DNA of 64,000 bases from an uncultured Acidobacteriota bacterium. Its GTDB lineage: Bacteria; Acidobacteriota; Vicinamibacteria; Vicinamibacterales; 2-12-FULL-66-21. Position numbers and translations under genes: made by a program. The notes below the pieces were generated by a model. It had not been told where the DNA came from. It searched no databases and was given only the letters and a program-made list of their open reading frames with translations. Shown one piece after another: positions 26,155 through 62,225 of the stretch; position 1 is the first letter of the stretch; each line of letters starts with the position of its first letter. The stretch covers positions 238,021-302,020 of the forward strand of contig CAVVIH010000001.1 of NCBI GenBank assembly GCA_963748295.1, written 5' to 3'.

Positions 26155-27660
26155 TCAGGAGGCCTGCTGCAATCCCCAGCGGCGCCGCTTCAGGAACAGG
26201 CCCTTTCTCGAAATCCCCAACAACCGCGCCGCCTCTTCGACGCGGCCGTGCGTCCGTTCGAGCGCCCGCCGGACCAGCGTCTGTTCGAGCAGTTCGACCG
26301 CGGCCGGCAGCGGCTGATCCAGCGCGAGGTGGATCTCGGGCTCTCCCGGCGCCGAGGCGGGAATCGTGCGGCGCGACGCCTGGATCTCGGACGACAGCAA
26401 CGCCGGGGTCAGCGTCGAGCCCGGCTCGGCGAGCGCCACCATCCGGCGCACCTCGTTGGCGAGCTGACGGATATTTCCCGGCCATGAATACAACAGCAGG
26501 TATTCGAGCGTCTCGTCGCTCAGCGTCAGCGGGCCTTTCTTCTGCTCGTCGCTGTAGCGGCGGATGTAGTGCTGCACCAGGGTCGGGATCTCCTCGCGGC
26601 GCTCGCGCAGCGGCGGCACGCGCAGCTGGATGACGTTGAGGCGGTAGAGCAGATCCTCGCGGAAGCGGCCCTGCGCCACCAGCTGTTCGAGGTTCGCGTT
26701 GGTGGCGGCGATGATGCGCACGTCGACGCGGGTCGGCTGCGACTCGCCGAGCGGGTGGACCTCCTGGTGCTCGAGGAACCGCAGCAGCTTGGGCTGGAGA
26801 TCGAGCGGGATGTCGGCGATCTCGTCGAGGAACAGGGTGCCGCCCGCCGTCGCGCGGATGACGCCCGGGAACGAGAACTCGGCGCCGGTGAAGGCGCCCT
26901 TGCGATAGCCGAACAGCTGGCTTTCGAGCATGTCGCGCGGCACCGCGCTGCAATTGAACGGCACCAGCGCGCGCTCGGCGCGGTCGGACGACTTGTGGAT
27001 CGCGCGCGCGAGCATCTCCTTGCCGGTGCCGGTTTCGCCGGTGAGCAGCACCGGCAGCGGGGTCGCGGCGATGCGCCGGGCGATCGACAGGATCTCCGCG
27101 GCCTGCTCCGAGGCCCAGATGCTCTCCGGATCGCCGTCGAGCGCCTCGGCCGGCCAGAGCGCCGTGCGCTGCTTCTCGTCACGGCGGTAGCGGTCCAGGG
27201 TGACCGCGGTCGCGAGCAGTTTGCGGATCGCGGCGAGGGTGCACCGCTCGTCGAGGCCGGCGCGCGGCCGCGCCAGCAGGTGCCAGGTTTCCTCGCGGTG
27301 GACGCCGACCGTCATCAGATCGTCGGGCGTCGCCGCCCGGGCCGCCGCCAGCGCCTCCTCCATCGTCCAGCCGTCAGCCTCGATGACGCGGTGCTCCTTG
27401 CCGCCGGTGGCGACGAGCGCGACGCTCTCGGCGCAGCGTGTGTCCTGCACCAGCGCGAACGCCTCGCGGCCGAGGATGTGCGGGTGTCCGGCGAGCTCGA
27501 GGAGCGCGACGGCGCTGTCGAGGTAGGTGGCGGAGTCGGGATCCGGACCGGAATCGGAAAACGACGCTCGTCTTGGTCGCTTCAGCCGCAGCGTCGAAAT
27601 CACCAGCGCTCTCGAAAAGCCTGGATGCTCGTCTCGTATGTCCAGCGGCGCGCATTGCAT
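26155..27660 (-). CDS. sigma-54-dependent enhancer-binding protein (AAA+ plus Fis-type HTH), no receiver domain
   Basis: LLTGETGTGKEMLARAIH (Walker A), GAFTGA (sigma-54 contact loop), GTLFLDEI (Walker B), RIIAATNANL, FREDLLYRLNV, WPGNIRQL. C-terminal HTH: GRVEEAARLLGISRKGLFLKRRRWG. Confidence 0.85.
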   Translation of the reverse strand: MQCAPLDIRDEHPGFSRALVISTLRLKRPRRASFSDSGPDPDSATYLDSAVALLELAGHPHILGREAFALVQDTRCAESVALVATGGKEHRVIEADGWTMEEALAAARAATPDDLMTVGVHREETWHLLARPRAGLDERCTLAAIRKLLATAVTLDRYRRDEKQRTALWPAEALDGDPESIWASEQAAEILSIARRIAATPLPVLLTGETGTGKEMLARAIHKSSDRAERALVPFNCSAVPRDMLESQLFGYRKGAFTGAEFSFPGVIRATAGGTLFLDEIADIPLDLQPKLLRFLEHQEVHPLGESQPTRVDVRIIAATNANLEQLVAQGRFREDLLYRLNVIQLRVPPLRERREEIPTLVQHYIRRYSDEQKKGPLTLSDETLEYLLLYSWPGNIRQLANEVRRMVALAEPGSTLTPALLSSEIQASRRTIPASAPGEPEIHLALDQPLPAAVELLEQTLVRRALERTHGRVEEAARLLGISRKGLFLKRRRWGLQQAS

Positions 27661-28852
27661 GTCCCCCCTGCAGGAAAGCTAAACCCAAAAGCCGATGCAG
27701 ACACGCTATTTGACTAATGGGCCAATGATTGCAAGTTTCCAAAATCGGTAGCTGAACGTCGTCCACTCTAGTTCCAGCCGCTATCAACGCTTCCTGTCGG
27801 TGGAGTTCAAATGCATTTGCGAACAGATCCAGATGGCTCGACCGAGCGAGCGCCAGCGAGGATTCTGCCTGACGAATTGCATCGCTCCAATTATGTTGGG
27901 ATAGCATCATCCGAACGCGCGTCTGATGCGCATTCAACCGGTACCACGGTTGTATGCCTTCTCGGTCCTCGGCCTCGTCGAGAATCTTCAACGCAGATTC
28001 GTAGTCACCGGACGCCATGACAGTCCGAGCTTCGGTATCCGAAAGACTAAGCGCATAACTCGGATTGTCCAAAGGCTCACGGCGAGCCGCCTCAAGTTGC
28101 TCTCTCGCTTCCGACAGTCGACCGAGAGAGGAATATAAGAACGCTCGCGATGCAGCCGCCGCCATCTTGCCTCTGGACCAGCCACTTGCTGCAGCCTCCG
28201 CAGCACCGATTTCAGCTAAAGCCAAAGCTTCAGGGAGATTCCCCATCAACGTGAGAAGAGAAGCCTGATTCAACGCCGCACATGCAGCCAGGTGATGATT
28301 TGGTTCTGTGAGCAATAACCTCCGTGCAAGGTCGAAATGTTTATCCGAAATTGACGCCCGTCCGTTCTTTCCTTCTAACCTGCCAAATGTGATGTGAACC
28401 AAGGAGGTGGCATGGACGTCCCCACATCGCATTGCATATTCGCGGACACGTTTCGCCAGCGGCAACGATCTACTGAAGCCTTCACTGTCACAAACTCGCT
28501 CTAGAAGCTGCGCGGCCGTCTTGCACAACTGCGTATGATCACGAGCCTGTTCGGCAAACAGGATTGCCCGCCGGGTCATTTCGATCGCAATGGATGGGTG
28601 CCCAGAATGCCACTCAGCCTCTGCCATGAGTGACAGGGCCCGGCATTTGTACGCGGTCGTGAGCGTCGATGATGCCAGTATTCGCTTCGCTTCGCTGACG
28701 GCTTCCGAAGTTCTCCCGCGATATAACAGCAACTCTGCGCGCAAGATGGAGTGGTCGGGATCGCTCTTAACACGAACGGTCTCGAGAAGACCCAGAGCCT
28801 CTTCAAATCGACCTTCACGAACCGCTCGGTGGATAACGCTTTCTTCCGCCAT
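27374..28852 (-). CDS. TPR-like helical-repeat protein. The meaningful part is 27661..28852. The 3' 287 nt overlap the bEBP gene in another frame and probably reflect a 1-nt error in the C6 run at 27663..27668.
   Basis: ORF 27374..28852. Helical repeats are rich in A/L/E with TPR-like spacing (GRFEEALGLLE, YRGRTSEAVSEAKRIL, GNLPEALALAEIG, GRLSEAREQLEAA, GDYESALKILDEA). G+C is much lower than in the flanks. The sequence after ...LAFLQGG is Arg/Pro-rich frame noise inside the bEBP gene. Confidence 0.55.
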   Translation of the reverse strand: MAEESVIHRAVREGRFEEALGLLETVRVKSDPDHSILRAELLLYRGRTSEAVSEAKRILASSTLTTAYKCRALSLMAEAEWHSGHPSIAIEMTRRAILFAEQARDHTQLCKTAAQLLERVCDSEGFSRSLPLAKRVREYAMRCGDVHATSLVHITFGRLEGKNGRASISDKHFDLARRLLLTEPNHHLAACAALNQASLLTLMGNLPEALALAEIGAAEAAASGWSRGKMAAAASRAFLYSSLGRLSEAREQLEAARREPLDNPSYALSLSDTEARTVMASGDYESALKILDEAEDREGIQPWYRLNAHQTRVRMMLSQHNWSDAIRQAESSLALARSSHLDLFANAFELHRQEALIAAGTRVDDVQLPILETCNHWPISQIACLHRLLGLAFLQGGHAMRAAGHTRRASRLFESAGDFDAAAEATKTSVVFRFRSGSRLRHLPRQRRRAPRARRTPAHPRPRGVRAGAGHTLRRERRARRHRRQGAPRHRG

Positions 28853-28857
28853 AGTAG

Positions 28858-31228
28858 TTAATGAACTGATGTGCCGGGAGGCTGCGGGAGTATTGGCTGC
28901 TCGCGTCCAATCGCGCTCCGCATGAGAATCTCGAGGCTTGAACCATCAACTGGAGCACTTGCCACGCCAATAACGAGCTGGAGATGGGTAGCTAGCTCGT
29001 TAGAAAGCTCCTGTGACAACAGTGCCGAGACGCGAGTGGCAACGCCGAGAGCATCTGACAAGCCAGTCTGCGGTAGCAGCACCAAAAACTGATCTGTCTT
29101 ATGCCGGAGCAGCAGATCAACCGTCCGTAACCCTTTCTTAATGCCCTCGGCAATGCGATCGAGATCAGCACTTGAACCTTCATCGCGAAAACTGTCGGGC
29201 CGATGAGATATTTTCACAGTTACGACGATAATCGATACGTCGGACGCGGGGGTGAAGTCCGTAGTAACGAATCCCGGCTGAACCGTAGCTTGCATTCCCG
29301 ACGTTGAGAGCTTGCTCTCGATCGGCGGCTCAATCTTCAATGACGGCGCAACTTGTTTCACAATGCCTTCAACGATGCGGCGATGGTCTTCTCCGAATCC
29401 AGCCTCACTAGTCGAGTAGAGCGTTAGTACACCAATCAGATCATCTCCAGAGATCATTGGTGTATCCAGGCAGTTTTGAAGTGGTCTCAACCTCCGACCC
29501 ATATCGCCCAAATCAAGGACTGGATCCGAATTGACGATAGTTCGCTTATTAGCGGCAACCCAGCCGGTCAAACGTTCGCCACGATGAATGCGCAGCCCTA
29601 ACACGTGAGTTGAGTACCTCACCATTGGCTTGCGTGGCTACAAGATCATCGGTGGTTACTTCATACCTATAGAAAACGGATGTCGTCGCTGGAACCAGCC
29701 GCCTCAGGTGCGTAAACACTTCCTCAATGACCTGCGCACCGTCTGACCGACCAGACAAGGCTATGGCAAGGTCATACAAGACCATCATCTCTTCTGTGCT
29801 CGCGGCGATATCATTCAGGCGCGTTGTTCGCCCTGTCTGATCGGATGAAGTGCCGCCGCGAGCAATGCTTGAGAAGGCAAGTGTAGTGGTCGCAGCCGCA
29901 CGAAGTTCCTGACGAGCAACTGAGTGAACTTCGATGAAGGCGTCAACGATGATGGGATCGTACATAGAGCCGCGTCTATCGAGCAGGATTTTTATGGCGT
30001 CAGCGTCAGGTAGGCGCGGGCGATAAGGACGGTCTGATGTAAGAGCGTCAAAACAATCCACGACAGAAAGGATACGGGCGCCGATCGGAATCTCCGCGCC
30101 TCTCAGACCATCAGGATAGCCAGAACCATCCCAGTTCTCGTGGTGATGTCGAACGATCGGGACGACCGGGTATGGGAAATCGATCGCGGACAGAATATCT
30201 GCTCCGACGCTGGCGTGAAGCTTCATCTTCTCAAATTCCGCAGCGGTCAACTTACCTGGCTTGTTCAAGATATATTCAGGGACTGCAAGTTTTCCCATGT
30301 CGTGAAGAAGTGAGGCCGCTTCTATTGCGCTGATTTGAATCTGCTCTTTTACTCCAATATGTTTGGCAAGTTGGACCGCGTATTGCTGCACTCGCCTAAT
30401 GTGCCCGTGGGTGATCTGATCCTTGGCGTCGATCGCCATGGCCAGCGTCTCGATCGTCGACAGGTAGAGCTTATTGAGTTCGCTCAAGTGTCGATTCGCA
30501 TCGTCGACGCGGCCCAGGGCTGCCTTGAAAGTCAAATAAAAAATGAGGAGAACCGGAAGCAAAACACCAGTGACGTAGAGGAAGGCATCATAAGTGTTCG
30601 CCTGTAGCAAGTAGGGCAGGAGAAGCGCAGCGACCGAAGCCCCGCTGAAGTAGTTGAGAGACAGCCATAAGAAATTCTGTTTCCAAATCGTAAATGCTGC
30701 TTGTCCCTTCTGGAACGACACAGCAAACGCTACCAGCCAGCTGTTCAGCAGAAAATACAGCGCGGCCAATCCAAAGAGCGGAAGAACCACTGATAATACT
30801 GGTTGAGGCGTAACAGAGAGGGGATCTATCCGCGCAACTACGTAGAAGCCAGTGGACGCCGTCCAAATCGCTACAGCTGCGGCTGCGACGTTAAAGAAAA
30901 CTCTCGAAATTGGAATCGAGCTACGTCCCAGCCAGAAAGAAATGACTAAGGTGTCAAGTACTACAATCATGGTTGCGGCTGCGGGACCAAATAGAAGGAC
31001 AGCCGCAAATACAAACGTGTCTGAGACGGATAGTCGAGCGGAGACTCCAGGAATACGAACAGTGAAGGACCCACTCAATAGAGTGAGCACTGCTAGCATC
31101 GCCCATTGCGGCGGAATCGGTCTTTGGGCCAGCGACCAAATTGAATGCAGTACCGCAAAGACGCCGGCTAGAACGACGCTTGCTACATAAATACGTCCGG
31201 CATCTCCGAGTTTCTCTCGGGCGCGCAT
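28858..31228 (-). CDS. multi-TM sensor + HD-GYP phosphodiesterase + GAF + degenerate GGDEF domain (frame break near 29620)
   Basis: ORF 29549..31228 has about 7 TM segments, then HGHIRRVQQYA...LLHDMGKLAVPEYILNKPGKL...HHHENWDGSGYPDGL...VDCFDALTSDRPYR, then the start of a GAF domain (MMVLYDLAIAL...VFYRYEV). ORF 28858..29625 continues the GAF (GERLTGWVAANKRTIVNSDPVLDLGD). A GGDEF-like fold follows, with KTDQF where GGDEF is expected (DLLLRHKTDQFLVLLPQT). Confidence 0.75.
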
Positions 31229-31320
31229 TCGAACTCCCTGTAACCCTAGTCTCCCCAGATGATAAGTCGGCTCATCTGTTTGCTCCTTCTAGTATAGGGA
31301 CCATTGGTTGAAGTGCGGCT

Positions 31321-32993
31321 TCAATCAGCACGAACAACAGCGTCAGCCCAGACGATAGTGTCGGCCCAGACAATAGTGTCAGCCCACACGATGGTGTCGG
31401 CCCAGACGATTGTGTCCGACCACACCAGCGTGTCGGCCCAGACGATGGTGTCGGCCCAGACGATGGTGTCGGCCCAGACGATGGTGTCAGCCCAGACGAT
31501 GGTGTCAGCCCAGACGATAGTGTCGGCCCAGACGATAGTGTCGGCCCAGACGATGGTCTTAGCTCTCGATTTCTGAGAAATCGCGTATCGAGGGAGGAGT
31601 CCTTGTGGAGTGGATGCGTCATTGAATGCCAGACCCGACCGAAGGACTATCTCTCCGCCGATACTGATCGGCCCGCGATAAGTTTCTTCGCCAGCCCCAC
31701 CGCCGCCAGCGCATTCAGGCTCCCCGCCCCCGCCTCGATCAGCCCGGCCCCCTTCACCCGCGAGCTCGTGACCTGCAGGATCAGCTTGATCTCCGCCGGC
31801 GACAGGTTCGGCCGCGCCTCGAGGACCAAAGCGGCGGCGCCCGAGACGACGGCGGTCGACATGCTCGTGCCGCTCATCTCCATGTAGGCGCTGGTGCCGT
31901 CGCTCGTCACCACCCGCTCGGGATAATCCCGCGCCAGCGTGCTCGAGGCCATCACCGCCGACACGATGCGATTGCCCGGCGCCGCGAGCTCCGGCTTGAG
32001 CACGCCGTCGATCACGGACGGACCGCGCGAGCTGTAGGTCGCCATGATGTCGTCGGACCGCTCGGCGGTGCCGCGCGTGTTGAGCGCCCCCACCGTCAGC
32101 GCGAACGGCGAGTTGCCCGGCGACACGATTCCGCCCACCACCGGCTTCCCGTCGTCGGTCTTGCCGAAGTTGCCGGCCGCCGCGACGACGAGGATGCCCT
32201 CTTCGGTCGCCCGCTGCACGGCCTGGCACAGCGGATCGTCCTTGTACGACTCCAGCACCGGCTTGCCGAGCGAGAGGTTGATGATCCGGATGTTGTATTC
32301 GCGCTGGTGTGCGACGGCCCAGTCGATCGCTTCGATCACGTCGCTGGTCGTGCCCGACCCGTCGTCGCTGATCGCGCGGAGGCTGACGATGTGCGCGCCC
32401 GGCGCCACGCCGCGTTCACCGGCGGCGCCGCCCGAGATGATGCCCGCGACGTGCGTGCCGTGGCCGTAGCCGTCCGGATCGCCCGAGGACGAGTCCGTGA
32501 AATCAACCGACGCCACCACGCGGCCCGCGAGGTCGCGGTGATTGCCGACGCCGGAGTCGATGATCGCGACGCCGATGCCGCGGCCGGAATACGCGGAGAT
32601 GCCCTGGAGCGCCCCGCTCCACACCTGGTCGGCGCCAATCGCGCTGGTCGTGACGGCCATCATCCGCCGCACCGGCGCATCGCTCGAAACGGAGTCGACC
32701 TCGGGGTCCTGCGTCAGCGCATCCAGCTGACCGCCGCTGACTTCGAGAACCGCGCCGTTCCGGAGCGTCTTGAGGACGCGGACGCCGTACCGGGTCGCGA
32801 GCGTGTCGATCTGCTCGCGGCTGCCCGAGACGATGACCCGAGTGCTCGACTGGTCCCCAGCCGCCAGTCGGTCGACAAGATCCTTCGACAGCCGCGCCCG
32901 CCGAGGGCCGGCCTGTGCCGCCGCAACCACCAGTAGCGCGATCGCCAGGGTGGCGAGGCTGCGGAGAAACGTGCGTCGAACGAGAGTCATCAT
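31321..32993 (-). CDS. secreted S8 subtilisin-like protease (signal peptide, I9-like propeptide) with a C-terminal (TIVWAD)n array (frame break at the C-run 31672..31674)
   Basis: ORF 31647..32993: MMTLVRRTFLRSLATLAIALLVVAAAQA; VAIIDSGV (Asp), HGTHVAGII (His), GTSMSTAVVSGAAAL (Ser). After ...GLAKKLIAG, a 1-nt shift joins the frame of ORF 31321..32229: PISIGGEIVLRSGLAFNDASTPQGLLPRYAISQKSRAK(TIVWAD)n. Confidence 0.8.
31324..31557 (-). repeat. 13 head-to-tail 18-bp units encoding TIVWAD (one TLVWSD, last unit AVVRAD)
   Basis: Directly visible: GTCGGCCCAGACGATGGT-type units with mostly third-position differences. Open in several frames (ORFs 31272..31622, 31304..31576, 31321..32229). Confidence 0.95.
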
Positions 32994-33312: not shown

Positions 33313-35068
33313 GTGAGTTCATTAGTGGCCCGAACATCGAAGACGCTCGGTCTCATCGTGATCCTCGGGATCGCCGCCGGCGCCGCGTGGCGCTTCAGGA
33401 CGCACGCGCCGGACGCGGTGCCGGACCGCGAAAACCTGCGCATTGTTCGCGGCGGCGAGCTGGTCGCCTCGCTTCGATCCGATCCCGCGACCTACAACCG
33501 CTACATCCGGCCGGGGGCCAGCGCGGCGACCGAGGTGGTCACGCAGCTCGTTCACGCGCGGCTGATCCGGGTCAACAGGTCGACGGATGAAATCGAGCCG
33601 TCGCTCGCCGAATCGTGGACCCGATCGGACGATGGATTGACTTACACCCTCCGGCTGCGCCGGGATGCGGCCTTCTCGGACGGGATGCCGTTCACGTCGG
33701 CTGATGTCCTTTTCTCGTTCCGCGCAGCGTACGACGAGGGGGTGAAGAGTCCGATTCGGACGTCACTGGAGGTCGCCGGCAAGCCGTTGCAGGTTACCGC
33801 GCCGGATTCGAACACGGTGGTGATCGTGTTTCCGCAGGCGTTTGCGCCCGGCCTCCGGCTGCTGGACAACCTGCCGATTCTCCCAAAGCACAAGCTCGAA
33901 GCGGCCCTCAACGGCGGCACGTTCGCCGAGCAGTGGGCCCCATCGAAGCCTCTTGGCGACATCGCCGGCCTGGGTCCGTTCACGCTCGTCGAGCACGTGT
34001 CGGGCCAGCGGCTGGTGTTCGCCCGGAACCCGCGATACTTCCGCAAGGACGACCGGGGTGAATCGCTGCCGTATCTCGATCGCCTGACGCTGGCAATCGT
34101 TCCGGACCAGAACACCGAAGCGCTTCGCCTCGAGGCGGGGGAGACCGACCTCATGGTGAATGGCGAGATCCGGCCGCAGGATTACGCGGCGTTCAAGCGC
34201 GCCGCGGACGAAGGCCGCGTCCGGCTCCTCGATGTCGGGGTCGGCCTCGACCCTGATTTCCTGTCATTCAACCTGCGGGCCGCGAAGCAGGCCGATCCGC
34301 GCTGGGGGTGGCTCGGACGCCGCGAGTTCCGTCAGGCGATCGCGTGGGGGGTCGATCGGCAGGCGATCGCCGACACGGTGTACCTCGGGGCGGCGGTTCC
34401 CATCTCGACGCCGGTCTCGCCCGGCAACCGGACCTGGTACTCGAAGGACCTGCCGGCGTTCAATCACGATCCGGCGCGGGCGCGGCAGCTGCTCGCGTCG
34501 CTCGGCCTGCGCGATGCGAACGGGGACGGTACTCTCGAGGACAAGTCCGGCGCGCCCGTGCGCTTCTCGATCCTGACCCAGGGCGGTCACAACCGCGAGC
34601 GAGTCGTCTCCGTTCTGCAGTCGCAGCTGGGCGCCCTCGGAATCGCGATCGACATCGTCGCGCTCGATCAGGGAGGCCTCTTCCAGCGGTGGAGCTCCGG
34701 CGACTACGACGCGATGTACTTCGGTCTCCAGGCCAGTTCCACCGACCCCTGGCTCAATCCCGAGGTACTGGCTCAGCTCCGGAGGATTTCACTTGTGGAA
34801 TCCGGCGCAACCAGCGCCGGCGACCGATTGGGAGGCCCGCATCGATACGCTGATGCGATCGACGGCCGGCGCACCGGATCTGGCCGCGCGCCAATCGGCA
34901 TTTGCCGACGTTCAGCGCATCCTGATCGAAGAGCTGCCCGCCATCTACTTCGTGACCCCGCGGCTGACCCTTGCGACGTCGCACAAGGTGGTGAACCCGA
35001 CACCGGCGCCGCAGAGTCCGCAACTGCTCTGGCGTGCCGAGACCCTCGCCTCGGCCGGCGCGCGCTGA
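33313..35068 (+). CDS. ABC transporter substrate-binding protein, family 5 (peptide/nickel, DppA/OppA-like) (frame break near 34760)
   Basis: ORF 33313..35160: IEPSLAESWTRSDDGLTYTLRLRRDAAFSDGMPFTSADVLFSF, GLGPFTLVEHVSGQRLVFARNPRYF. C-terminal part in ORF 34793..35068: WNPAQPAPATDWEARIDTLM...ELPAIYFVTP. Confidence 0.8.
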
Positions 35069-35069
35069 C

Positions 35070-36017
35070 GTGCCTCCAGGTTTCCTGCGCTTCGTCGTCC
35101 GCCGCACCATTTTTGCCGCGCTTCTCGTCGTGGTGGTGTCGTCGGCCGCCCTGGCGTTGATCTCGGCGGCCCCCGGCGGGCACCTCGCCGGCTTCGACCT
35201 GACCCCCGAGATCGTCGCCGCGGAGCGGGCGCGCCTCGGACTGGATCGGCCGTTCATCCAGCAGTACGCAGACTGGCTCGGGAAAGCGATCCGGCTCGAC
35301 TTCGGCGAATCCCTCAGATATCGACGGCCGGTTCAGGATCTCGTCAGGGAGCGCGCCTGGAACACCGTGGTGCTTGGCAGCGCCGCACTCCTGCTCGCGA
35401 CGGTGCTCGGAATTCCGGCGGGGATTTTCACCGGCAGCCGCACGAGCGCGCTCGCATCGCTGATGCGAGGCGTGTCGATGGTGCTGCTGTCGGTGCCGCC
35501 GCTGGTGACGTCTTTCTTGCTGCTGTACATCGCGGCGCGGACGCGCTGGCTGCCGGTCGGCGGGTTCGGCGGCGGCGCGCCGTCGAACGGCGCCCAGATG
35601 CTTCTGTATCTCGTCTTGCCGTGCCTCGCGCTGGCGATGCCGATGGCGGCGACGCTCGAACGCCTTCAATCACAGACGATGCGCGACGCGATGATGGAAC
35701 CGAGCATCGAGGCGGCACGCGCGCGCGGATGTTCGATCGCCCGGGTGATCTGGCGGCACGCGCTGCGCCTTTCGCTCAAGCCGGTCGTCGCCCTCTACGG
35801 GATCTTCCTCGGCAGCGTGCTGAGCGGATCGTTTGCGGTTGAAATCATCATGTCGTGGCCGGGGCTTGGCGCGCTGACGTATGAGGCGCTCGTCGCGAGA
35901 GATCTCTTTCTCGTCGCCGGCTGTGCCGCGGCCGGCGCCGCCTTCCTCGCCGCCGGCGTACTCGTATCCGACATTGCGCTCGCCGTCATCGATCCACGCG
36001 TCACGGAGGCGCATTGA
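35070..36017 (+). CDS. ABC transporter permease (DppB/OppB-like)
   Basis: The GTG at 35070 lies 2 nt after the SBP stop. FLRFVVRRTIFAALLVV..., LGLDRPFIQQYADWLGKAIRLDFGESL, six TM segments. Confidence 0.8.
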   Translation: MPPGFLRFVVRRTIFAALLVVVVSSAALALISAAPGGHLAGFDLTPEIVAAERARLGLDRPFIQQYADWLGKAIRLDFGESLRYRRPVQDLVRERAWNTVVLGSAALLLATVLGIPAGIFTGSRTSALASLMRGVSMVLLSVPPLVTSFLLLYIAARTRWLPVGGFGGGAPSNGAQMLLYLVLPCLALAMPMAATLERLQSQTMRDAMMEPSIEAARARGCSIARVIWRHALRLSLKPVVALYGIFLGSVLSGSFAVEIIMSWPGLGALTYEALVARDLFLVAGCAAAGAAFLAAGVLVSDIALAVIDPRVTEAH

Positions 36018-37039
36018 CACGCCCTGCGCCGCGCGCGATCGGCATCGCGATCATCGCCCTGCTTGCGGCCGCCGCCGCCGGAGCGAACGTCATTCGCGTC
36101 AATGCTCCCGATCGGCAGTTCTCCGATTTCGTATTCGCGCCGCCCATGCCGATCCGAATCTTCGATCGCGATGGCACGCTGCGGATGCCGTTCGTCTATC
36201 CCTTGCGTCTTCAGAGCCGGCTCGAACGCACCTTCGCCGAAGACCGTGATCATCCGATGCCGCTGCGGTTTTTTTCGGGGGGCAAGCTGATTACCACGGC
36301 TGACAGCGGGTCGCCATGGTTCCCGCTCGGAACCGACGCGCTCGGCCGGGACGTTTTCGCGCGGCTCGCCACCGGCAGCCGCCTCTCGCTCGGCGTGGCG
36401 TTCGCGGCCGCCGCGGGCGCGTTGCTGATCGGCGCGCTGGCCGGCGCGATCGCCGGACTCCTGGGCGGGCGCATCGACGACGTGCTGATGCGTGTGTCGG
36501 AATTCATCCTCGCGCTGCCGGCGCTCTACGTGGTCCTGGCACTGCGGGCCGCGGCGCCGCTCATCCTCAGCACGGCGCAGATCTTCTGGATCATGGTCAC
36601 CGTCTTCGCGCTCGTCGGATGGCCCTTCGCGGCGCGCGGCGTCCGCGCCATCGTTGCCGCCGAACGGACACGGGAGTACGCAGAAGCTGCGCGATCGATC
36701 GGCGCTTCCCGTACGCGTTTGTTGCTACGTCACCTCCTGCCTGCCACGCGTGGCTTTCTCGTCGTGCAGGCAACCCTGCTCCTCCCGGCGTTCATCCTGG
36801 CTGAAGCGACTCTGTCCTTTGCAGGTCTTGGATTTGGCGAGCCGACACCGAGCTGGGGAGTGATGCTTCAGGAGGCGGGCAGGGGGCGCACACTCGCCGA
36901 TGCTCCCTGGCTCCTGGCCCCCGCCGGCGCGATTGCCGCCCTCGTTTTTGCCGTCAACCTCTTCACAGGAGCGACCGTTTCTGCACACCCGCGCCTGACG
37001 TCATCAGATAAATCACGCGTTATCAATGATTTATCGTGA
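36014..37039 (+). CDS. ABC transporter permease (DppC/OppC-like)
   Basis: Overlaps the upstream stop codon. PLGTDALGRDVFARLATGSRLSLGVAF, EYAEAARSIGASRTRLLLRHLLP (EAA-like loop). Confidence 0.8.
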   Translation: MTRPAPRAIGIAIIALLAAAAAGANVIRVNAPDRQFSDFVFAPPMPIRIFDRDGTLRMPFVYPLRLQSRLERTFAEDRDHPMPLRFFSGGKLITTADSGSPWFPLGTDALGRDVFARLATGSRLSLGVAFAAAAGALLIGALAGAIAGLLGGRIDDVLMRVSEFILALPALYVVLALRAAAPLILSTAQIFWIMVTVFALVGWPFAARGVRAIVAAERTREYAEAARSIGASRTRLLLRHLLPATRGFLVVQATLLLPAFILAEATLSFAGLGFGEPTPSWGVMLQEAGRGRTLADAPWLLAPAGAIAALVFAVNLFTGATVSAHPRLTSSDKSRVINDLS

Positions 37040-37266
37040 CTGTCTCAAGAGTGTTCCAGACCTGACATCGGTGTGACGGAATTGAACATAGGGGTAACCC
37101 ACTAATTGCTTGCTATTTAGCCTTCCGTCAAAGACAAATTACAGCCTTGTATGTTCCAGGATGGTGCACGATGATCGTCCTGAGGCCCGGTCCAACAGTT
37201 CCGTATTTCTCAGCAAGTCTCAGTTCGGCAAGTAGATAGCTCACCTTTGCGCAAGCCCGGCCGTCG

Positions 37267-37282
37267 TGGCCGACGCCTTGCT
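37267..37282 (+). promoter_or_regulatory. candidate sigma-54 (-24/-12) promoter upstream of the GNAT-subtilase-GNAT unit
   Basis: TGGCCGACGCCTTGCT against the consensus TGGCACG-N4-TTGCW. GG and GC are correctly spaced and TTGCT is a perfect -12 element. It lies 70 nt upstream of the ATG at 37352, in a 310-bp lower-GC non-coding spacer. Confidence 0.45.
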
Positions 37283-37351
37283 CTGCCGGTGGCTGTCAAC
37301 AAGGTGTGTCTTCGCCGCCCGCGGGCGCACACACCCAGGAGCAAAAAGACC

Positions 37352-38005
37352 ATGGCGACCTCGATGTCAGACCCCGTCGGACAGCAGCTCGCGACGAACG
37401 TGATTCCGGCGGCAGTCCAGGAAAGTGACTGGCGCAAGCGGCTCCCGGTGATCGCGGGGCGCGGCGTCACCCTGCGCGAGTTGCGGGCCGGCGACGCGCC
37501 GGCGTTGCTCGAGTTGCTCGCGACCAGCGAGGTCGCCCAGTTCATTTCGCCGCCACCGACGACGGTCGACGGGTTCGAGCGCTTCATTTCATGGGCGCAG
37601 CAGGAACAGCGGGAAGGCCGCTACGTGTGCTTCGCGGTCGTGCCCGAGGGCATGTCGACGGCGGTCGGGATCTTTCAGGTTCGGAAGCTCGAACCGCAGC
37701 TCGGCACCGCCGAGTGGGGTTTCGCGCTCGGCCGCGCCTACTGGGGCTCGGGAATCTTCGCGGCTTCGGCGCGGCTCGTCGTCGACTTCGCGTTCGAGAC
37801 CGTCGGCGTGCATCGTCTCGAAGCGCGTGCGGCGGTCGCGAACGGGCGCGGCAACGGCGCGCTCGCGAAAATCGGCGCGGTGAAGGAAGGTCTGCTGCGC
37901 AGGAGCTTCCTGCGGCACGGGCAGTATCACGACCAGACGCTCTGGTCGATCGTGCGGGAAGACTGGCGGCGGTCGAAAGCAGTGTGGGGGGACGTGGTGC
38001 ACTGA
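37352..38005 (+). CDS. GNAT family N-acetyltransferase (RimJ/RimL-like)
   Basis: Internal Met of ORF 37247..38005. VTLRELRAGDAPALLELL, EWGFALGRAYWGSGIF, GVHRLEARAAVANGRGNGALAKIGAVKEGLLRRSF. No signal peptide. Confidence 0.8.
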   Translation: MATSMSDPVGQQLATNVIPAAVQESDWRKRLPVIAGRGVTLRELRAGDAPALLELLATSEVAQFISPPPTTVDGFERFISWAQQEQREGRYVCFAVVPEGMSTAVGIFQVRKLEPQLGTAEWGFALGRAYWGSGIFAASARLVVDFAFETVGVHRLEARAAVANGRGNGALAKIGAVKEGLLRRSFLRHGQYHDQTLWSIVREDWRRSKAVWGDVVH

Positions 38006-38111: not shown

Positions 38112-40191
38112 ATGCAGTTCCGATGGGTTAACCGAACGTGGGCGGTCAGGATCCTGGCCCTCGCGTGCTTGACGGGGGTGATTGCCCCGCCGGCAGCGCA
38201 GGCCGAGAGCTACCGCAACCGCCAGCTCGAAAAGCAGCTCGAGCAGATCGAGAGGCAGGCGAAGGAGCAGGAGGACGCGCAGTACGGAAAGCGCGGACGG
38301 CTCCACGACCTGAAGTCGCTGCGCGAGAAGGGCCGGATTCGCGTCCTCGTGATGCTGAAGCCTGGCTCGGATGGCTCTCAGCTCGACGAAGCAGCTTGGC
38401 GGCCGCCTCGCCCGGGAGTTCCGCTTCTCGAACTTCGCGGCGCTCGATCTGCCGATGGGCCAGCTGAAGAAGCTCGCGCGTTACAGCGACGTTCTCTCCG
38501 TCCACCTGGATCGCGACATCGCCGGCGACATGACCCGCGAGATGAGCGCGATTGGCGCACGCTACGTCCAGGAGCAATACGGCTTCGACGGGAGGGGCGT
38601 GGGCGTCGCGGTGATCGACTCGGGGATCACCGGATGGCACGACGACCTGACCTATCAGGGCACTTCGGCCAAGGTGCGCGTGGTGAATGGCCAGCGCGTG
38701 GCGGCGTTCGTCGACTTCGTCGAAGGCACGACGACGCCGCATGACGACTTCGGCCACGGCACGCACGTCGCCGGCATCATTGCCGGCAACGGCTACGACT
38801 CGGACGGCGCGCGCGCCGGCGTCGCCCCCGCAGCGCACATCGTCAGCCTCCGCGTGCTCGACGATCAGGGCTTCGGCGTGATCAGCGACGTCATGGCGGC
38901 GCTCGAGTGGGCGGTAGCGAACAAGGCGGCGCACAACATCCGCGTCATCAACATGTCGGTGGGCGCGGGCGTGCACGAATCCTACAACACCGACCCGCTG
39001 ACGCTTGCGGCGAAGCACGCGGTGGAGTCGGGCATCGTCGTCGTCGCGGCCGCGGGCAACCTCGGCAAGACGAGCGACGGCAAGATCCTCTACGGCGGCA
39101 TCTGCGCGCCCGGCAACGCACCCTGGGTGCTGACGGTCGGCGCGTCGGACACGAAGGGCACGGCGACGCGATTCGACGACTCGGTCGCGCCGTACAGTTC
39201 GCGTGGGCCCTCGCTGATTGATCACGCCGCCAAGCCCGACGTCGTCGCGCCTGGCACCAGCATCGTTTCGCTTGCGGATCCGAACAGCCTGCTTTACACC
39301 GCACGGGCCGGATCCCTCGTTCGCGGCACGCACCCGATGGCGACCAAGCCTTACCTGTCGCTGACCGGCACGAGCATGGCGGCGCCGATGGTGTCGGGCA
39401 CGGTCGCGCTGATGCTGCAGGCGAACCCGACGCTCACGCCGAACCTCGTCAAGGCGGTGCTGCAGTTCACGGCGTTCGACAGCGGTGACGCAGATCCGCT
39501 GACCGAAGGCGCCGGCTTCCTGAACGCACGCGGTGCGGTCGACCTGGTGCGCTACTTCAAGACTGCGACGTACGGGTCGCGGTACCCGGTCTCGAGCAGC
39601 TGGAGCCAGCAGATTCTGTGGGGCAACTACCAGCTGAGCGGCGGCGTGCTGTCGCCGACCGCGAGCGCCTGGGGCCTCGACATCGTCTGGGGCACCGCAC
39701 TTGACCGCGAGGGCCGGAACATCGTCTGGGGCACGCTCTGCGACGACGACTGCGAAAACATCGTGTGGGGCACGGACATCGTGTGGGGCACGGACATCGT
39801 GTGGGGCACGAACATCGTCTGGGGCACCTACGGTGACGGCGAGAACATCGTCTGGGGCACCCTCGATGATCTGGGCAGCAGCCGCAACATCGTCTGGGGC
39901 ACGCTTTGCGAGGGCCGCAACTGCCGCGACATCGTCTGGGGCACCGACATCGTCTGGGGCACGGACATCGTCTGGGGCACCGACATCGTGTGGGGCACGG
40001 CGCTCGACCTCGAAGACGTGGTCTGGGGGACGATGGCCGATTTCGAGAACATCGTCTGGGGCACGAGCGGCGCCGACGAGGACGGACCGATGTATGACGA
40101 CCCGGAGGGGACCATAGGGATCTTCCCGCTCCTGCCGGATGAGGAAATCTCCATCAGCCTGACGCTGATGCCAGCCGGGGGAGGTCTCTAA
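38112..40191 (+). CDS. secreted S8 subtilisin-like protease with a C-terminal xIVWGT repeat array (frame break near 38370)
   Basis: MQFRWVNRTWAVRILALACLTGVIAPPAAQA (frame of ORF 38067..38744), then ORF 38371..40191: VAVIDSGI (Asp), HGTHVAGIIAG (His), GTSMAAPMVSGTVALM (Ser), followed by 15 xIVWGT units. Confidence 0.8.
39679..40064 (+). repeat. 15 (D/N)(I/V)VWGT hexapeptide units, some contiguous and some separated by 5-8 aa spacers
   Basis: DIVWGT ALDREGR NIVWGT LCDDDCE NIVWGT DIVWGT DIVWGT NIVWGT YGDGE NIVWGT LDDLGSSR NIVWGT LCEGRNCR DIVWGT DIVWGT DIVWGT DIVWGT ALDLE DVVWGT MADFE NIVWGT. Confidence 0.9.
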
Positions 40192-40859
40192 TGGAGAAGA
40201 TGCCTTTCCACGAGTCAGAACAAATCGGCGACGTGCACGCCGTGATGATGGCTGCGTCGACGGAGCAGGTGACGACGAGCGACTGGCGTCAGAAGCTGCC
40301 GGTGCTCACCGGGTCGATGGTCACGCTGCGCGAGCTGCGGCTGTCGGATGCGCCGTCGCTGCTGTCGATGCTCTCGACCGAGGAAGTGGCGCGATTCATC
40401 TCGCCGCCGCCGACGACGATCGAGGGGTTCGAGCGATTCATCGCCTGGACGCATCGTGAGCGGGCGGTCGGCGCGTATGTCTGCTTCGCGGTGGTTCCGC
40501 ACGGCATGGACACTGCCGTCGGGATCTTCCAGGTGCGTCAGCTCGATCCTGGATTCAGCACCGCCGAGTGGGGCTTCGCGATTGGATCCCCGTTCTGGGG
40601 CACGGGCGTGTTCGTCGACGGCGCGAAAATGGTGATCGACTTCACCTTCGAGGTCGTCGGGTCGCACCGGCTCGAAGCGCGTGCGGCGGTGGCCAACGGC
40701 CGCGGCAACGGCGCGCTGCGCAAGATGGGCGCGAGCCAGGAAGGGGTGCTGCGCAAGTCGTTCCTGAGGGATGGCGAGTATCTCGATCAGACCCTCTGGA
40801 CGATCGTCGAAGACGACTGGCGGCGGAACCGGACGCCCGGCACGCCGCGCGTCCACTGA
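40191..40859 (+). CDS. GNAT family N-acetyltransferase, paralog of 37352..38005
   Basis: The ATG shares one nucleotide with the subtilase TAA (TAATG), and GGGGGAGG lies 8 nt upstream. VTLRELRLSDAPSLLSML, EWGFAIGSPFWGTGVF, GSHRLEARAAVANGRGNGALRKMGASQEGVLRKSF. Colinear with the first GNAT. Confidence 0.8.
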   Translation: MEKMPFHESEQIGDVHAVMMAASTEQVTTSDWRQKLPVLTGSMVTLRELRLSDAPSLLSMLSTEEVARFISPPPTTIEGFERFIAWTHRERAVGAYVCFAVVPHGMDTAVGIFQVRQLDPGFSTAEWGFAIGSPFWGTGVFVDGAKMVIDFTFEVVGSHRLEARAAVANGRGNGALRKMGASQEGVLRKSFLRDGEYLDQTLWTIVEDDWRRNRTPGTPRVH

Positions 40860-62111: not shown

Positions 62112-62144
62112 GATCCAACCTGCTGAATGCTTGAAAAGTTAGAA

Positions 62145-62205
62145 GTACGAAGTTAGAAGTAAGAAGTACCCCGTACCTTGTTACTTCTTACTTCTTACTT
62201 CGTAC
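62145..62205. repeat. long AT-rich hairpin built from inverted heptamer arrays in the rplU-rpmA spacer
   Basis: GTACGAAGTTAGAAGTAAGAAGTA (62145..62168) pairs with TACTTCTTACTTCTTACTTCGTAC (62182..62205). 23 of 24 positions are complementary, with a 13-nt loop. The arms are tandem AGAAGTA-type heptamers. Confidence 0.85.
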
Positions 62206-62225
62206 TCGCGGTGACACTTCTTACT

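What the first reader, a model, noticed from the sequence alone, without database searches (positions are those of the whole stretch)
31324..31557. Thirteen near-identical 18-bp units encode (TIVWAD)n at the end of subtilase 1
The units are contiguous with no spacers, and differ almost only at synonymous positions (gatAgt/gatGgt, gtcGgc/gtcAgc). One unit is TLVWSD and the last is a degenerate AVVRAD. DNA identity this high suggests recent expansion or concerted evolution, and makes slippage-driven copy-number change plausible. The motif does not fit the classical left-handed beta-helix hexapeptide rule [LIV]-[GAED]-x2-[STAV]-x, and it places one Trp in every six residues. The array joins the catalytic domain only after correcting a 1-nt indel at the C-run 31672..31674. 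The link is therefore inferred, supported by the parallel architecture of subtilase 2.
Basis: partly seen in the sequence, partly recalled or inferred. Interest (0 to 1): 0.7.

Follow-up and report, generated by a model that had tools for sequence, protein, structure and literature searches.

The report
Tryptophan hexapeptide tail on a secreted subtilase
The 18-bp repeat is real and encodes a (TIVWAD)n tail at the C-terminus of an intact secreted subtilase; the apparent frameshift is a 1-base assembly error, and the tail belongs to a widespread, unannotated repeat family of soil Acidobacteriota proteases whose fold and function are unknown.

Summary
Observation confirmed. Window 31342..31557 (minus strand) holds 12 head-to-tail 18-bp units: 11 TIVWAD and 1 TLVWSD. 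A degenerate AVVRAD unit and the stop codon follow.

The frameshift that separates the array from the S8 catalytic domain is an assembly error. Short-read contigs from four independent public runs carry one extra base after 31682. Adding the base gives one 557-aa ORF. Five more 1-nt indels between 34.7 and 41.3 kb show that the assembly is indel-prone.

The same architecture recurs in about 80 Acidobacteriota MAG loci, in thousands of database proteins and in 117 metagenome arrays: signal peptide, propeptide, S8 domain, a conserved 'IAGE..SG.aF' linker, then x-[IVL]-[IVL]-W-x-[DNE] units. Every array that could be evaluated follows an S8 domain. Copy number ranges from 3 to 27, and each array is homogenised on a species-specific unit.

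No Pfam or NCBIfam model, solved structure or paper covers the tail. AlphaFold2 models it with low confidence. It lies closest to left-handed beta-helix hexapeptide repeats, with Trp at position i+1, but the window's own array is below threshold.

Most likely function, inferred only: a length-variable beta-solenoid module for binding or anchoring. This is a new variant of a known kind, of moderate interest.

The parts
31321..32993 (-). Subtilase 1, complete gene. With one base restored in the T-run 31683-31685 it is a single 557-aa ORF from ATG 32993 to TGA 31321-31323.
   Evidence: ORFs. Corrected translation. Orthologue tblastn switches from frame -3 to frame -2 between 31686 and 31674.
32910..32993 (-). 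Predicted N-terminal signal peptide (MMTLVRRTFLRSLATLAIALLVVAAAQA), with an RR-x-F-L motif that resembles a Tat signal.
   Evidence: Read from the sequence. AF2 draws helix 2-25. The same N-terminus occurs in P0084. Cleavage site and export route are inferred.
31758..32585 (-). Peptidase_S8 catalytic domain (residues 137-412). Motifs: D146 (DSG), H178 (HGTH), N275, S377 (GTSM).
   Evidence: Pfam PF00082, E=1.5e-54. These residues are invariant across the 88 aligned sequences. AF2 pLDDT exceeds 90. The best Foldseek hits are pro-Tk-SP 3afg and subtilisins.
31683..31685 (-). Site of the 1-nt assembly deletion. The window has TTT (AAA on the coding strand); independent contigs have four bases here.
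   Evidence: 'T put in behind 31682' in contigs of X25 (154 nt, no other difference), X27 and X20. An extra base at the same place in X8.
31558..31682 (-). Linker TYRGPISIGGEIVLRSGLAFNDASTPQGLLPRYAISQKSRAK. It contains the family-conserved 'IAGE..x.SG.aF' motif. GC3 is low (about 0.47).
   Evidence: Consensus 'TxIAGExxxxSGxAF' in alignment A1 and in the loci. AF2 draws three short strands, with block-mean pLDDT 89 then 77.
31342..31557 (-). Twelve Trp-containing 18-bp units: TIVWAD x11 and TLVWSD x1.
31324..31341 (-). Degenerate terminal unit AVVRAD, followed directly by the stop codon at 31321-31323.
   Evidence: In 25 of 102 metagenome arrays the protein likewise ends exactly at the last unit.
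38112..40191 (+). Subtilase 2, a paralogue. It has 15 in-frame [QDN][IV][LV]WG[NT] units at 39610..40065, separated by loops of 0 to 17 residues. Its N-terminal signal and propeptide part lies in another frame because of a 1-nt insertion in the window at about 38384.
   Evidence: The indel at 38384 is seen in an X30 contig with no mismatches.
33313..37039 (+). Divergently transcribed peptide ABC transporter: an SBP_bac_5 binding protein (with an assembly indel at 34764) and two permeases. This synteny with the subtilase is conserved.
   Evidence: Pfam SBP_bac_5, E=9e-75. The SBP lies immediately upstream on the opposite strand in all 40 hit rows inspected, each a different related locus. The permease assignment is read from the ORF translations; no domain search was run on them. 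Indel.
28858..31228 (-). Downstream neighbour on the same strand: a membrane HD-GYP / GAF / GGDEF protein. It is a single ORF of 800-833 aa in six relatives (L004, L007, L013, L014, L018, L022) and is split in the window at about 29600-29618.
   Evidence: Pfam. tblastn frame switch.

Best explanation
Subtilase 1 is an intact gene for a secreted S8 serine protease. Its parts in order are a signal peptide, an N-terminal propeptide, the catalytic domain, a short conserved linker, and a C-terminal array of 12-13 hexapeptide units (TIVWAD)n that is translated in frame. The frame break in the window is a 1-base deletion introduced by an indel-prone assembly.

The array belongs to a large, so far unannotated family of C-terminal extensions found on Acidobacteriota subtilases. 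The unit is x-[IVL]-[IVL]-W-[GATSD]-[DNE].

Inferred structure: a beta-strand-rich solenoid of variable length, closest in sequence logic to the left-handed beta-helix hexapeptide repeat. The aliphatic residue at unit position 3 and the small residue at position 1 would point inward. The invariant Trp would sit at the position that normally holds Gly/Ala/Asp/Glu, producing ladders of exposed Trp.

Inferred function: a binding or anchoring (or oligomerising) module. It would hold the protease on a polymeric surface or on the cell envelope while peptides are taken up by the adjacent ABC transporter.

Inferred evolution: unit number and unit sequence change by replication slippage or unequal recombination, with homogenisation within each array.

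Shown: the in-frame link, family-wide conservation, exclusive association with S8 domains, copy-number variation, and homogenisation.
Inferred: the fold, Trp exposure, and the function.
For: In-frame link:
- Four independent runs carry the extra base after 31682.
- The corrected ORF is 557 aa.
- Orthologues are single ORFs whose alignment to the window switches frame at 31674-31686.
- The frame-B linker matches the conserved IAGE..SG.aF motif.
- Five further 1-nt indels were seen against short-read contigs (34764, 37322, 38384, 41050, 41275); four of them (34764, 38384, 41050, 41275) fall where split genes had been predicted.

Family:
- Among the 80 genome loci retrieved, those whose contig continues past the catalytic domain mostly show the architecture.
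- 4539 proteins match at E<=1e-30. They are named only 'S8 peptidase' or 'AprX' and carry only PF00082.
- 1125 proteins match the subtilase-2 type.
- 117 metagenome arrays were found. All 82 evaluable ones follow S8 sequence: 76 by motif and 6 by eye.

Variation and homogenisation: 3-27 units; species-specific unit peptides and synonymous codons.

LbH leaning:
- Hexapep scores E=0.015 on the window tail.
- TMIWDN and GVLVGD arrays of relatives score 46 bits against the gathering cut-off of 27.
- TMIWDN matches solved LbH proteins 4mzu (4.6e-6) and LpxD (1e-5). In those alignments Ile at unit position 3 aligns to i, Trp to i+1 and Thr to i+4. 4mzu itself has Trp at i+1 twice.
- 18-residue super-periods (two W units plus one W-less xxVxxD hexad) occur in L031, L028 and L072.

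Beta character: AF2 places the W units in strands. The first two or three units of subtilase 2 are modelled confidently (block-mean pLDDT 86-94) together with the C-terminal end of the catalytic domain, the only part of that domain included in the model.

Nutritional context: the divergent SBP_bac_5 peptide transporter is conserved in all 40 hit rows inspected, each a different related locus.
Against: - AlphaFold2 gives only pLDDT 53-61 for the subtilase-1 array, drawn as 9-residue strands with period 12 rather than an LbH. For most of the subtilase-2 array pLDDT is below 50, despite alignments of 88 and 121 sequences.
- The window's own array is below the Pfam threshold (15.4 against 27 bits).
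- RIVWGD, SIVWTD, AVLWGD and GIAWSD arrays give no Hexapep hit.
- A profile of 26 arrays finds nothing in the PDB.
- HMMER places GVLVGD one residue out of register with TMIWDN, so Trp could correspond to the inward position i instead.
- W-W spacings of 8-14 residues are as common as 6. That is awkward for a strict hexad prism.
- No experimental or expression evidence bears on function. Retention of the tail in the mature enzyme is not shown.
Confidence: 0.6

Rival explanations
1. The frameshift is genuine. Subtilase 1 would then be truncated at 31647 and the repeat untranslated: a pseudogene tail, or on/off phase variation at the short A/T run.
For: The window as given has the stop at 31647 and no ATG, GTG or TTG in the tail frame between 31701 and the array. 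Several related long-read MAG loci also show the tail out of frame (L011, L021, L041, L062).
Against: Contigs from four independent runs have the extra base, including one identical to the window over 154 nt. The window has at least five other 1-nt indels relative to short-read contigs, four of them where genes appear split. A 3-4 nt run is too short for efficient slippage. The tail frame keeps the conserved linker motif and has no internal stop.
Confidence: 0.04
2. The tail is a C-terminal pro-region. It would be needed for folding, for export across the outer membrane or for latency, and would be removed from the mature protease, as with C-terminal pro-sequences of other secreted subtilases such as aqualysin I (from general knowledge). 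It would not be a functional binding module.
For: It sits at the extreme C-terminus after a conserved linker that could hold a processing site. The length varies freely from 3 to 27 units, which suggests no precise geometry is required. AF2 does not dock most of it onto the enzyme.
Against: Strong purifying selection and homogenisation maintain a Trp in every unit across phylum-level diversity. No similarity to known C-terminal pro-domains was found. No data on processing exist.
Confidence: 0.2
3. The array is not LbH-like. It would adopt a different, undescribed beta architecture. One option is a stack or meander of beta-hairpins with cross-strand Trp pairs. Another is a self-associating cross-beta (amyloid-like) segment that folds only on oligomerisation or ligand binding.
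For: AF2 draws 9-residue strands with 3-residue turns (period 12) at low confidence. W-W spacings of 10-12 are as frequent as 6. Subtilase-2-type tails have a consensus period of 11-14 residues. The family profile has no PDB hit. Half of the residues are Ile, Val or Trp, which argues against simple disorder.
Against: Two family variants pass the Hexapep threshold and align to solved LbH proteins. 18-residue super-periods occur. The AF2 models are too uncertain to support any specific alternative.
Confidence: 0.25
4. The junction at about 31690 is an assembly chimera that joins a high-GC subtilase to a low-GC fragment from another organism.
For: GC falls from about 0.70 to about 0.52 within roughly 100 nt of the frame break. 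A second frame break lies at the other edge of the low-GC block, at about 27550.
Against: The same GC drop directly after the catalytic domain is present in at least 15 related MAG loci from independent assemblies. Short-read contigs cross the junction colinearly. Synteny is conserved.
Confidence: 0.01

Closest known systems
Bacterial transferase hexapeptide repeat (Pfam PF00132), the left-handed parallel beta-helix of LpxA, LpxD, GlmU, gamma-carbonic anhydrase and WxcM-like proteins
   Same: Strict 6-residue period. An aliphatic residue at one fixed position and a small residue four positions later (V and T of TIVWAD). Homologous arrays TMIWDN and GVLVGD exceed the Pfam gathering score and match solved LbH chains at E from 1e-5 to 1e-9. 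Solved LbH proteins occasionally carry Trp at i+1.
   Different: Trp is invariant at the position that is normally G/A/E/D. The units are nearly identical, and their number varies 3-27. The array is appended to the C-terminus of a secreted protease rather than forming an acyltransferase or CA core. The window's array is below threshold. AF2 does not build an LbH.
C-terminal extension domains of secreted subtilases, such as the beta-jelly-roll domain of Tk-SP (3afg) and, from general knowledge, PPC or P-domains
   Same: An accessory domain following an S8 catalytic domain with an N-terminal propeptide. Tk-SP is the best structural match for the catalytic part.
   Different: Those are globular domains of fixed length. 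Here the extension is a short-period tandem repeat with no Pfam model, and nothing in the PDB matches it.
RTX nonapeptide beta-roll repeats at the C-terminus of type-I-secreted proteases (from general knowledge)
   Same: A short Asp-containing tandem repeat at the C-terminus of an extracellular protease. Copy number is variable and it forms a beta-solenoid.
   Different: The RTX period is 9 (GGxGxDxUx) and the repeat is Gly-rich without Trp. RTX substrates lack an N-terminal signal peptide, whereas subtilase 1 has one. No RTX model hit was found.
Aromatic-rich cell-wall or choline-binding repeats (CW_binding_1 type) that anchor secreted hydrolases (from general knowledge)
   Same: Tandem aromatic-bearing beta-hairpin repeats of variable number at a terminus of a secreted hydrolase. 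This is the model for the proposed anchoring role.
   Different: Those repeats are about 20 residues long with a different motif and come from Gram-positive bacteria. No sequence similarity was detected.

Membership tests
Peptidase S8 (subtilase) | Pfam PF00082 match above the gathering score | tested here: met
   185.7 bits against a cut-off of 21.8, E=1.5e-54.
Peptidase S8 (subtilase) | Catalytic Asp-His-Ser in that order, plus the oxyanion Asn | tested here: met
   D146, H178, N275 and S377 are present and are invariant or nearly invariant across the 88 aligned sequences.
Peptidase S8 (subtilase) | N-terminal propeptide (I9-like) and secretion signal | tested here: inconclusive
   No Pfam I9 hit at E<=1. 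AF2 models a confident alpha/beta unit at residues 33-104, and Foldseek aligns 413-433 columns to pro-forms 3afg and 3whi. The signal peptide is read by eye only.
Hexapep / left-handed beta-helix (PF00132) | Six-residue period | tested here: met
   Period 18 nt with no indels. 6 is the commonest W-W spacing.
Hexapep / left-handed beta-helix (PF00132) | [LIV] at i and [STAV] at i+4 | tested here: met
   Met in the register V-W-A-D-T-I. The same register is used in the phmmer alignments of the window tail to LpxD and of TMIWDN to 4mzu and LpxD.
Hexapep / left-handed beta-helix (PF00132) | [GAED] at i+1 | tested here: not met
   Trp occupies i+1 in all 12 units.
Hexapep / left-handed beta-helix (PF00132) | Score above the Pfam gathering threshold | tested here: not met
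   The window tail scores 15.4 bits against 27, E=0.015. Related arrays TMIWDN and GVLVGD do pass at 46 bits. RIVWGD, SIVWTD, AVLWGD and GIAWSD do not.
Hexapep / left-handed beta-helix (PF00132) | Three-sided left-handed helix with 18 residues per turn in 3D | tested here: inconclusive
   AF2 confidence on the arrays is low (pLDDT 35-61) and the drawn geometry is not an LbH. There is no PDB relative.
RTX beta-roll | Nonapeptide GGxGxDxUx | tested here: not met
   The period is 6 and the units contain no Gly. No model hit.
Autotransporter subtilase | C-terminal outer-membrane beta-barrel domain | tested here: not met
   No autotransporter model matched subtilase 1. The EprS model gave only a weak hit confined to the N-terminal (catalytic) part of subtilase 2. 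The tail has only 78 residues of repeat and varies from 3 to 27 units.

The most novel reading that the evidence does not exclude
The x-[IVL]-[IVL]-W-x-[DNE] arrays form a previously undescribed beta-solenoid, either a Trp-laddered variant of the left-handed beta-helix or a new hairpin stack. The fold would be present on thousands of Acidobacteriota secreted proteases. Its length, set by slippage, would tune binding avidity or reach on soil polymers or on the cell surface. AlphaFold2's failure on deep alignments would then mark a real gap in known fold space.
Probability: 0.3. Interest if true: 0.65.

Novelty: new variant of a known kind. Interest (0 to 1): 0.45.

Why it matters
Vicinamibacterales and other Acidobacteriota are among the most abundant soil bacteria, and secreted proteases drive soil nitrogen turnover. 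A dedicated repeat module is attached to thousands of their S8 proteases, yet it has no Pfam or NCBIfam model, no solved relative and no confident AlphaFold model. It is therefore a concrete and easily expressed target for structural and binding studies.

Two practical points follow. These arrays often coincide with short-read contig ends: several genome contigs stop within or just after the array, and in 14 of 15 metagenome loci whose array-bearing ORF runs off the locus end the array touches that end. Separately, at least seven of the 80 related genome loci show the subtilase gene itself broken by a frame change. The family is therefore likely to be systematically truncated or mis-annotated in MAG catalogues.

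Tried and rejected
1. Homology search with the tail alone. It gave one hit, and repeat-only queries appear to score poorly. It was replaced by full-length and tail-plus-catalytic-end queries.
2. First read-laying on four runs left 31558-31698 uncovered. A second run search restricted to the junction found runs that do cover it.
3. Chimera hypothesis for the GC step at about 31690. Rejected because relatives show the same step.
4. Programmed frameshift or phase variation. Rejected by the four-base allele in four runs and by the other indels.
5. Exact 25-mer from the linker against JGI metagenome contigs, to compare copy number within the species. No match. Copy number in the source population therefore remains unverified.
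6. Adjacency test for recent local duplication of units. Adjacent units are no more alike than random pairs (permutation p=0.62).
7. Profile of 26 arrays against PDB sequences. No hit.
8. Foldseek of both AF2 models. Only the S8 part matches.
9. Literature searches by motif strings and by keywords. Nothing on this repeat; the 'RIVW repeat' of Methanosarcina is an unrelated 42-aa repeat.
10. Outer-membrane barrel or autotransporter reading of the tail. Rejected by reasoning: an Asp sits in the middle of every putative strand, the tail is too short, and the unit number is too variable.
Full report
WHAT IS IN THE SEQUENCE

Tandem Repeats Finder reports one outstanding array, at 31342..31557: period 18, 12.0 copies, 87% matches, no indels, score 313. 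On the minus strand it reads TIVWAD x7, TLVWSD, TIVWAD x4, followed by a degenerate AVVRAD and TGA at 31321-31323.

The 11 TIVWAD units differ only at synonymous sites. TLVWSD carries the only two replacements.

Upstream, ORF 31647..32993 (minus strand, 448 aa) is a Peptidase_S8 protein (PF00082, E=1.5e-54). It ends ...GLAKKLIAGRSVSAER*. The array lies in a different frame, which has no start codon of its own between 31701 and the array.

THE FRAME BREAK IS AN ASSEMBLY ERROR

Orthologues from related genomes are single ORFs. Their tblastn alignment to the window runs in frame -3 down to about 31686 and continues in frame -2 from 31674.

The frame-2 translation ISIGGEIVLRSGLAF matches a linker motif conserved across the family (consensus TxIAGExxxxSGxAF).

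Contigs of public short-read runs cross the junction:
- X25: 154 nt, identical to the window except for one gap.
- X27: 311 nt.
- X20: 213 nt.
- All three carry one extra T after 31682.
- A fourth run from another study, X8, also has one extra base there.

The missing base is therefore in the T-run 31683-31685 (AAA on the coding strand, truly AAAA). Restoring it yields one 557-aa ORF reading ...AVGLAKKTYRGPISIGGEIVLRSGLAFNDASTPQGLLPRYAISQKSRAK(TIVWAD)n....

The window is indel-prone in general. Laying the same kind of contigs on 26.5-43 kb shows further 1-nt indels at 34764, 37322, 38384, 41050 and 41275. Four of these (34764, 38384, 41050, 41275) fall where I had predicted split genes:
- the C-terminus of the SBP_bac_5 protein;
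- the N-terminus of subtilase 2;
- DHDPS, split at Pfam profile positions 111|114.

A further frame switch sits at about 29600-29618 in the HD-GYP/GAF/GGDEF gene, which is a single ORF of 800-833 aa in six relatives. A genuine pseudogene, phase variation and programmed frameshifting are thereby essentially excluded.

A CHIMERA WAS CONSIDERED AND REJECTED

GC falls from about 0.70 to about 0.52 within roughly 100 nt of the frame break and stays low until about 27550. That suggested a mis-join. However, at least 15 related MAG loci from independent assemblies show the same drop directly after the catalytic domain. Short-read contigs also cross the junction colinearly. The low-GC block is therefore a conserved property of this neighbourhood, and it remains unexplained.

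THE FAMILY

A scan of one genome per species returned 80 loci, nearly all from Vicinamibacterales or other Acidobacteriota MAGs. Where the contig continues, the S8 domain is followed in frame by the linker and by units of the form x-[IVL]-[IVL]-W-[GATSD]-[DNE]. Unit variants seen include:
- TIVWAD (L007, L012, L013, L021);
- SIVWTD, SVVWTD, SLVWTD, AMVWTD, SIAWTD;
- RIVWGD (up to 27 units), QILWSD, GIAWSD, GVLWGD;
- TLIWDN and TMIWDN in Solibacteraceae;
- Trp-less GVLVGD and GVLMSD in Blastocatellia-type genomes.

A protein search found 4539 relatives at E<=1e-30. They are named only 'S8 family peptidase' or 'serine protease AprX', and PF00082 was the only recurring precomputed domain (two of the 120 listed proteins carry one extra, unrelated Pfam entry each). 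The tail of subtilase 2 has 1125 relatives at E<=1e-10.

Of 117 arrays:
- 76 follow an S8 motif in the same ORF;
- 34 are cut by the contig end;
- 7 remain, of which 6 are visibly S8 C-termini and one (L154) follows an integrase-like fragment.

The repeat therefore appears dedicated to this protease family.

Complete tails hold 3-27 units. In the metagenome set the range is 3-24, the median is 10, and 25 of 102 proteins end exactly at the last unit. Several genome contigs stop within or just after the array. In 14 of 15 metagenome loci whose array-bearing ORF runs off the locus end, the array touches that end.

EVOLUTION OF THE ARRAY

The mean pairwise identity of the window's units is 0.876. 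If the peptide is fixed and codons are drawn from the usage of the catalytic domain, the expectation is 0.884. Using the low-GC neighbours it is 0.818. Adjacent units are no more alike than random pairs (p=0.62). The DNA identity here therefore does not by itself show recent expansion.

The family does show concerted evolution. Each array is homogeneous for its own peptide and for its own synonymous codons:
- L021: ATT in 10/10 units and ACG in 9/10.
- L013: GCG in 8/12.
- L062: CTG in 10/11.
- L024: CGC in 27/27, against CGG in 14/15 for L017.

Together with the 3-27 range in unit number, slippage or unequal exchange is the natural mechanism. It was not observed directly. An exact-match search for the same species in JGI contigs found nothing, and short contigs cannot span the array.

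WHAT THE TAIL IS

No Pfam or NCBIfam model covers the window tail. The only hit is Hexapep at 15.4 bits (cut-off 27, E=0.015). No solved structure is similar; the best match is LpxD at E about 0.65.

AlphaFold2 on the read-through protein with 88 aligned sequences gave these results. That read-through used 'LIAG' where the true junction is 'TYRG'.
- The propeptide and catalytic domain are confident.
- The linker has block-mean pLDDT of 89 then 77.
- The array has pLDDT 53-61 and is drawn as 9-residue strands with period 12.

For the subtilase-2 tail with 121 sequences, the first two or three W units are modelled confidently (block-mean pLDDT 86-94), together with the C-terminal end of the catalytic domain that was included. 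The rest of the array is below 50. Foldseek matches only the S8 part.

Evidence that leans towards a left-handed beta-helix (LbH):
- Arrays of two relatives, TMIWDN (which contains Trp) and GVLVGD, score 46 bits on Hexapep.
- They match solved LbH chains at E from 4.6e-6 to 2.3e-9.
- In the TMIWDN alignments, the aliphatic residue at unit position 3 aligns to LbH position i, Trp to i+1 and Thr at position 1 to i+4. The template 4mzu itself has Trp at i+1 twice.
- In that register TIVWAD satisfies two of the three constrained positions of [LIV]-[GAED]-x2-[STAV]-x.
- Some relatives show 18-residue super-periods, with two W units plus one W-less xxVxxD hexad.

Evidence against an LbH:
- Four other array types give no Hexapep hit.
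- A profile of 26 arrays finds nothing in the PDB.
- HMMER places GVLVGD one residue out of register with TMIWDN.
- W-W spacings of 8-14 residues are as common as 6.
- AF2 does not build an LbH.

I therefore treat 'LbH-like solenoid with exposed Trp ladders' as the leading structural hypothesis at roughly 40%. It is not established membership.

FUNCTION (INFERRED)

The protein has a signal peptide with an RR-x-F-L motif, a propeptide and a complete catalytic apparatus. A peptide ABC transporter (SBP_bac_5 plus permeases) lies divergently upstream in all 40 hit rows inspected, each a different related locus. An HD-GYP/GAF/GGDEF membrane protein lies downstream. This fits an extracellular nutritional protease.

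The tail is hydrophobic, Trp-rich, variable in length and specific to S8 proteins. I judge it most likely to be a binding, anchoring or oligomerising module. A removable C-terminal pro-region is the main functional rival.

A soil metatranscriptome contig covers part of the array and linker of a close relative. This is weak evidence for transcription.

VERDICT

The feature is an ordinary, intact secreted subtilase carrying a member of a widespread but undescribed Trp-hexapeptide repeat extension. It is a new variant of a known kind, of moderate interest.

Noticed in passing
window 27550..31690: A block of about 4.1 kb has GC 0.50-0.57, against 0.66-0.74 on both flanks. It covers the TPR / sigma-54-activator N-terminal part, the HD-GYP/GAF/GGDEF gene and the subtilase-1 linker. 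The same drop begins just after the S8 domain in at least 15 related MAG loci, so it is conserved rather than a chimera. The reason is unknown. The TIVWAD array inside the block keeps a high GC3 of 0.92.
   Followed up: partly
window 34764, 37322, 38384, 41050, 41275; also about 29600-29618 and about 27540-27570: The window differs from short-read contigs by 1-nt insertions or deletions at five further sites. These split the SBP_bac_5, subtilase-2 and DHDPS genes. Two more frame switches are inferred from orthologues or from ORF layout. This pattern is typical of an unpolished long-read assembly.
   Followed up: yes
window 37247..38005 and 40191..40859: Two GNAT acetyltransferase genes with the same domain hits (Acetyltransf_3, E=2.6e-23 and 2.7e-20) and visibly similar sequences flank subtilase 2 on the same strand. 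Their relation to the protease was not examined.
   Followed up: no
window 39713..40028: The subtilase-2 array has a 171-bp (57-aa) higher-order repeat: 1.9 copies at 80% identity. Each copy contains a Cys-x3-5-Cys loop (LCDDDCE, LCEGRNCR) between W units. The family consensus keeps these Cys pairs (CxxxC, DCGGADC).
   Followed up: partly
window 26155..28852: The sigma-54 activator ORF (26155..27660: Sigma54_activat, AAA lid, HTH_8) overlaps the end of a TPR ORF (27374..28852) in another frame at a TTTT run. The two are probably one TPR-sigma54 regulator split by another indel. Read data did not cover this site.
   Followed up: partly
L154 (Ga0194132_10006427): This is the only array not preceded by S8 sequence. 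NIVWGD units follow an integrase-like N-terminal fragment in the same ORF. It is possibly a rearrangement or an insertion into a subtilase gene.
   Followed up: no
window 62136..62206: Two adjacent short arrays of 7-mers with complementary motifs (AAGTAAG x4.7, then CTTCTTA x4.3) form an AT-rich inverted arrangement in a GC-rich window.
   Followed up: no
L011, L021, L037, L041, L062, L073, L080: In several related MAG loci the subtilase gene is itself split by a frame change, in most of them between the catalytic domain and the tail. Many members of this family are therefore likely to be annotated as truncated proteins.
   Followed up: partly
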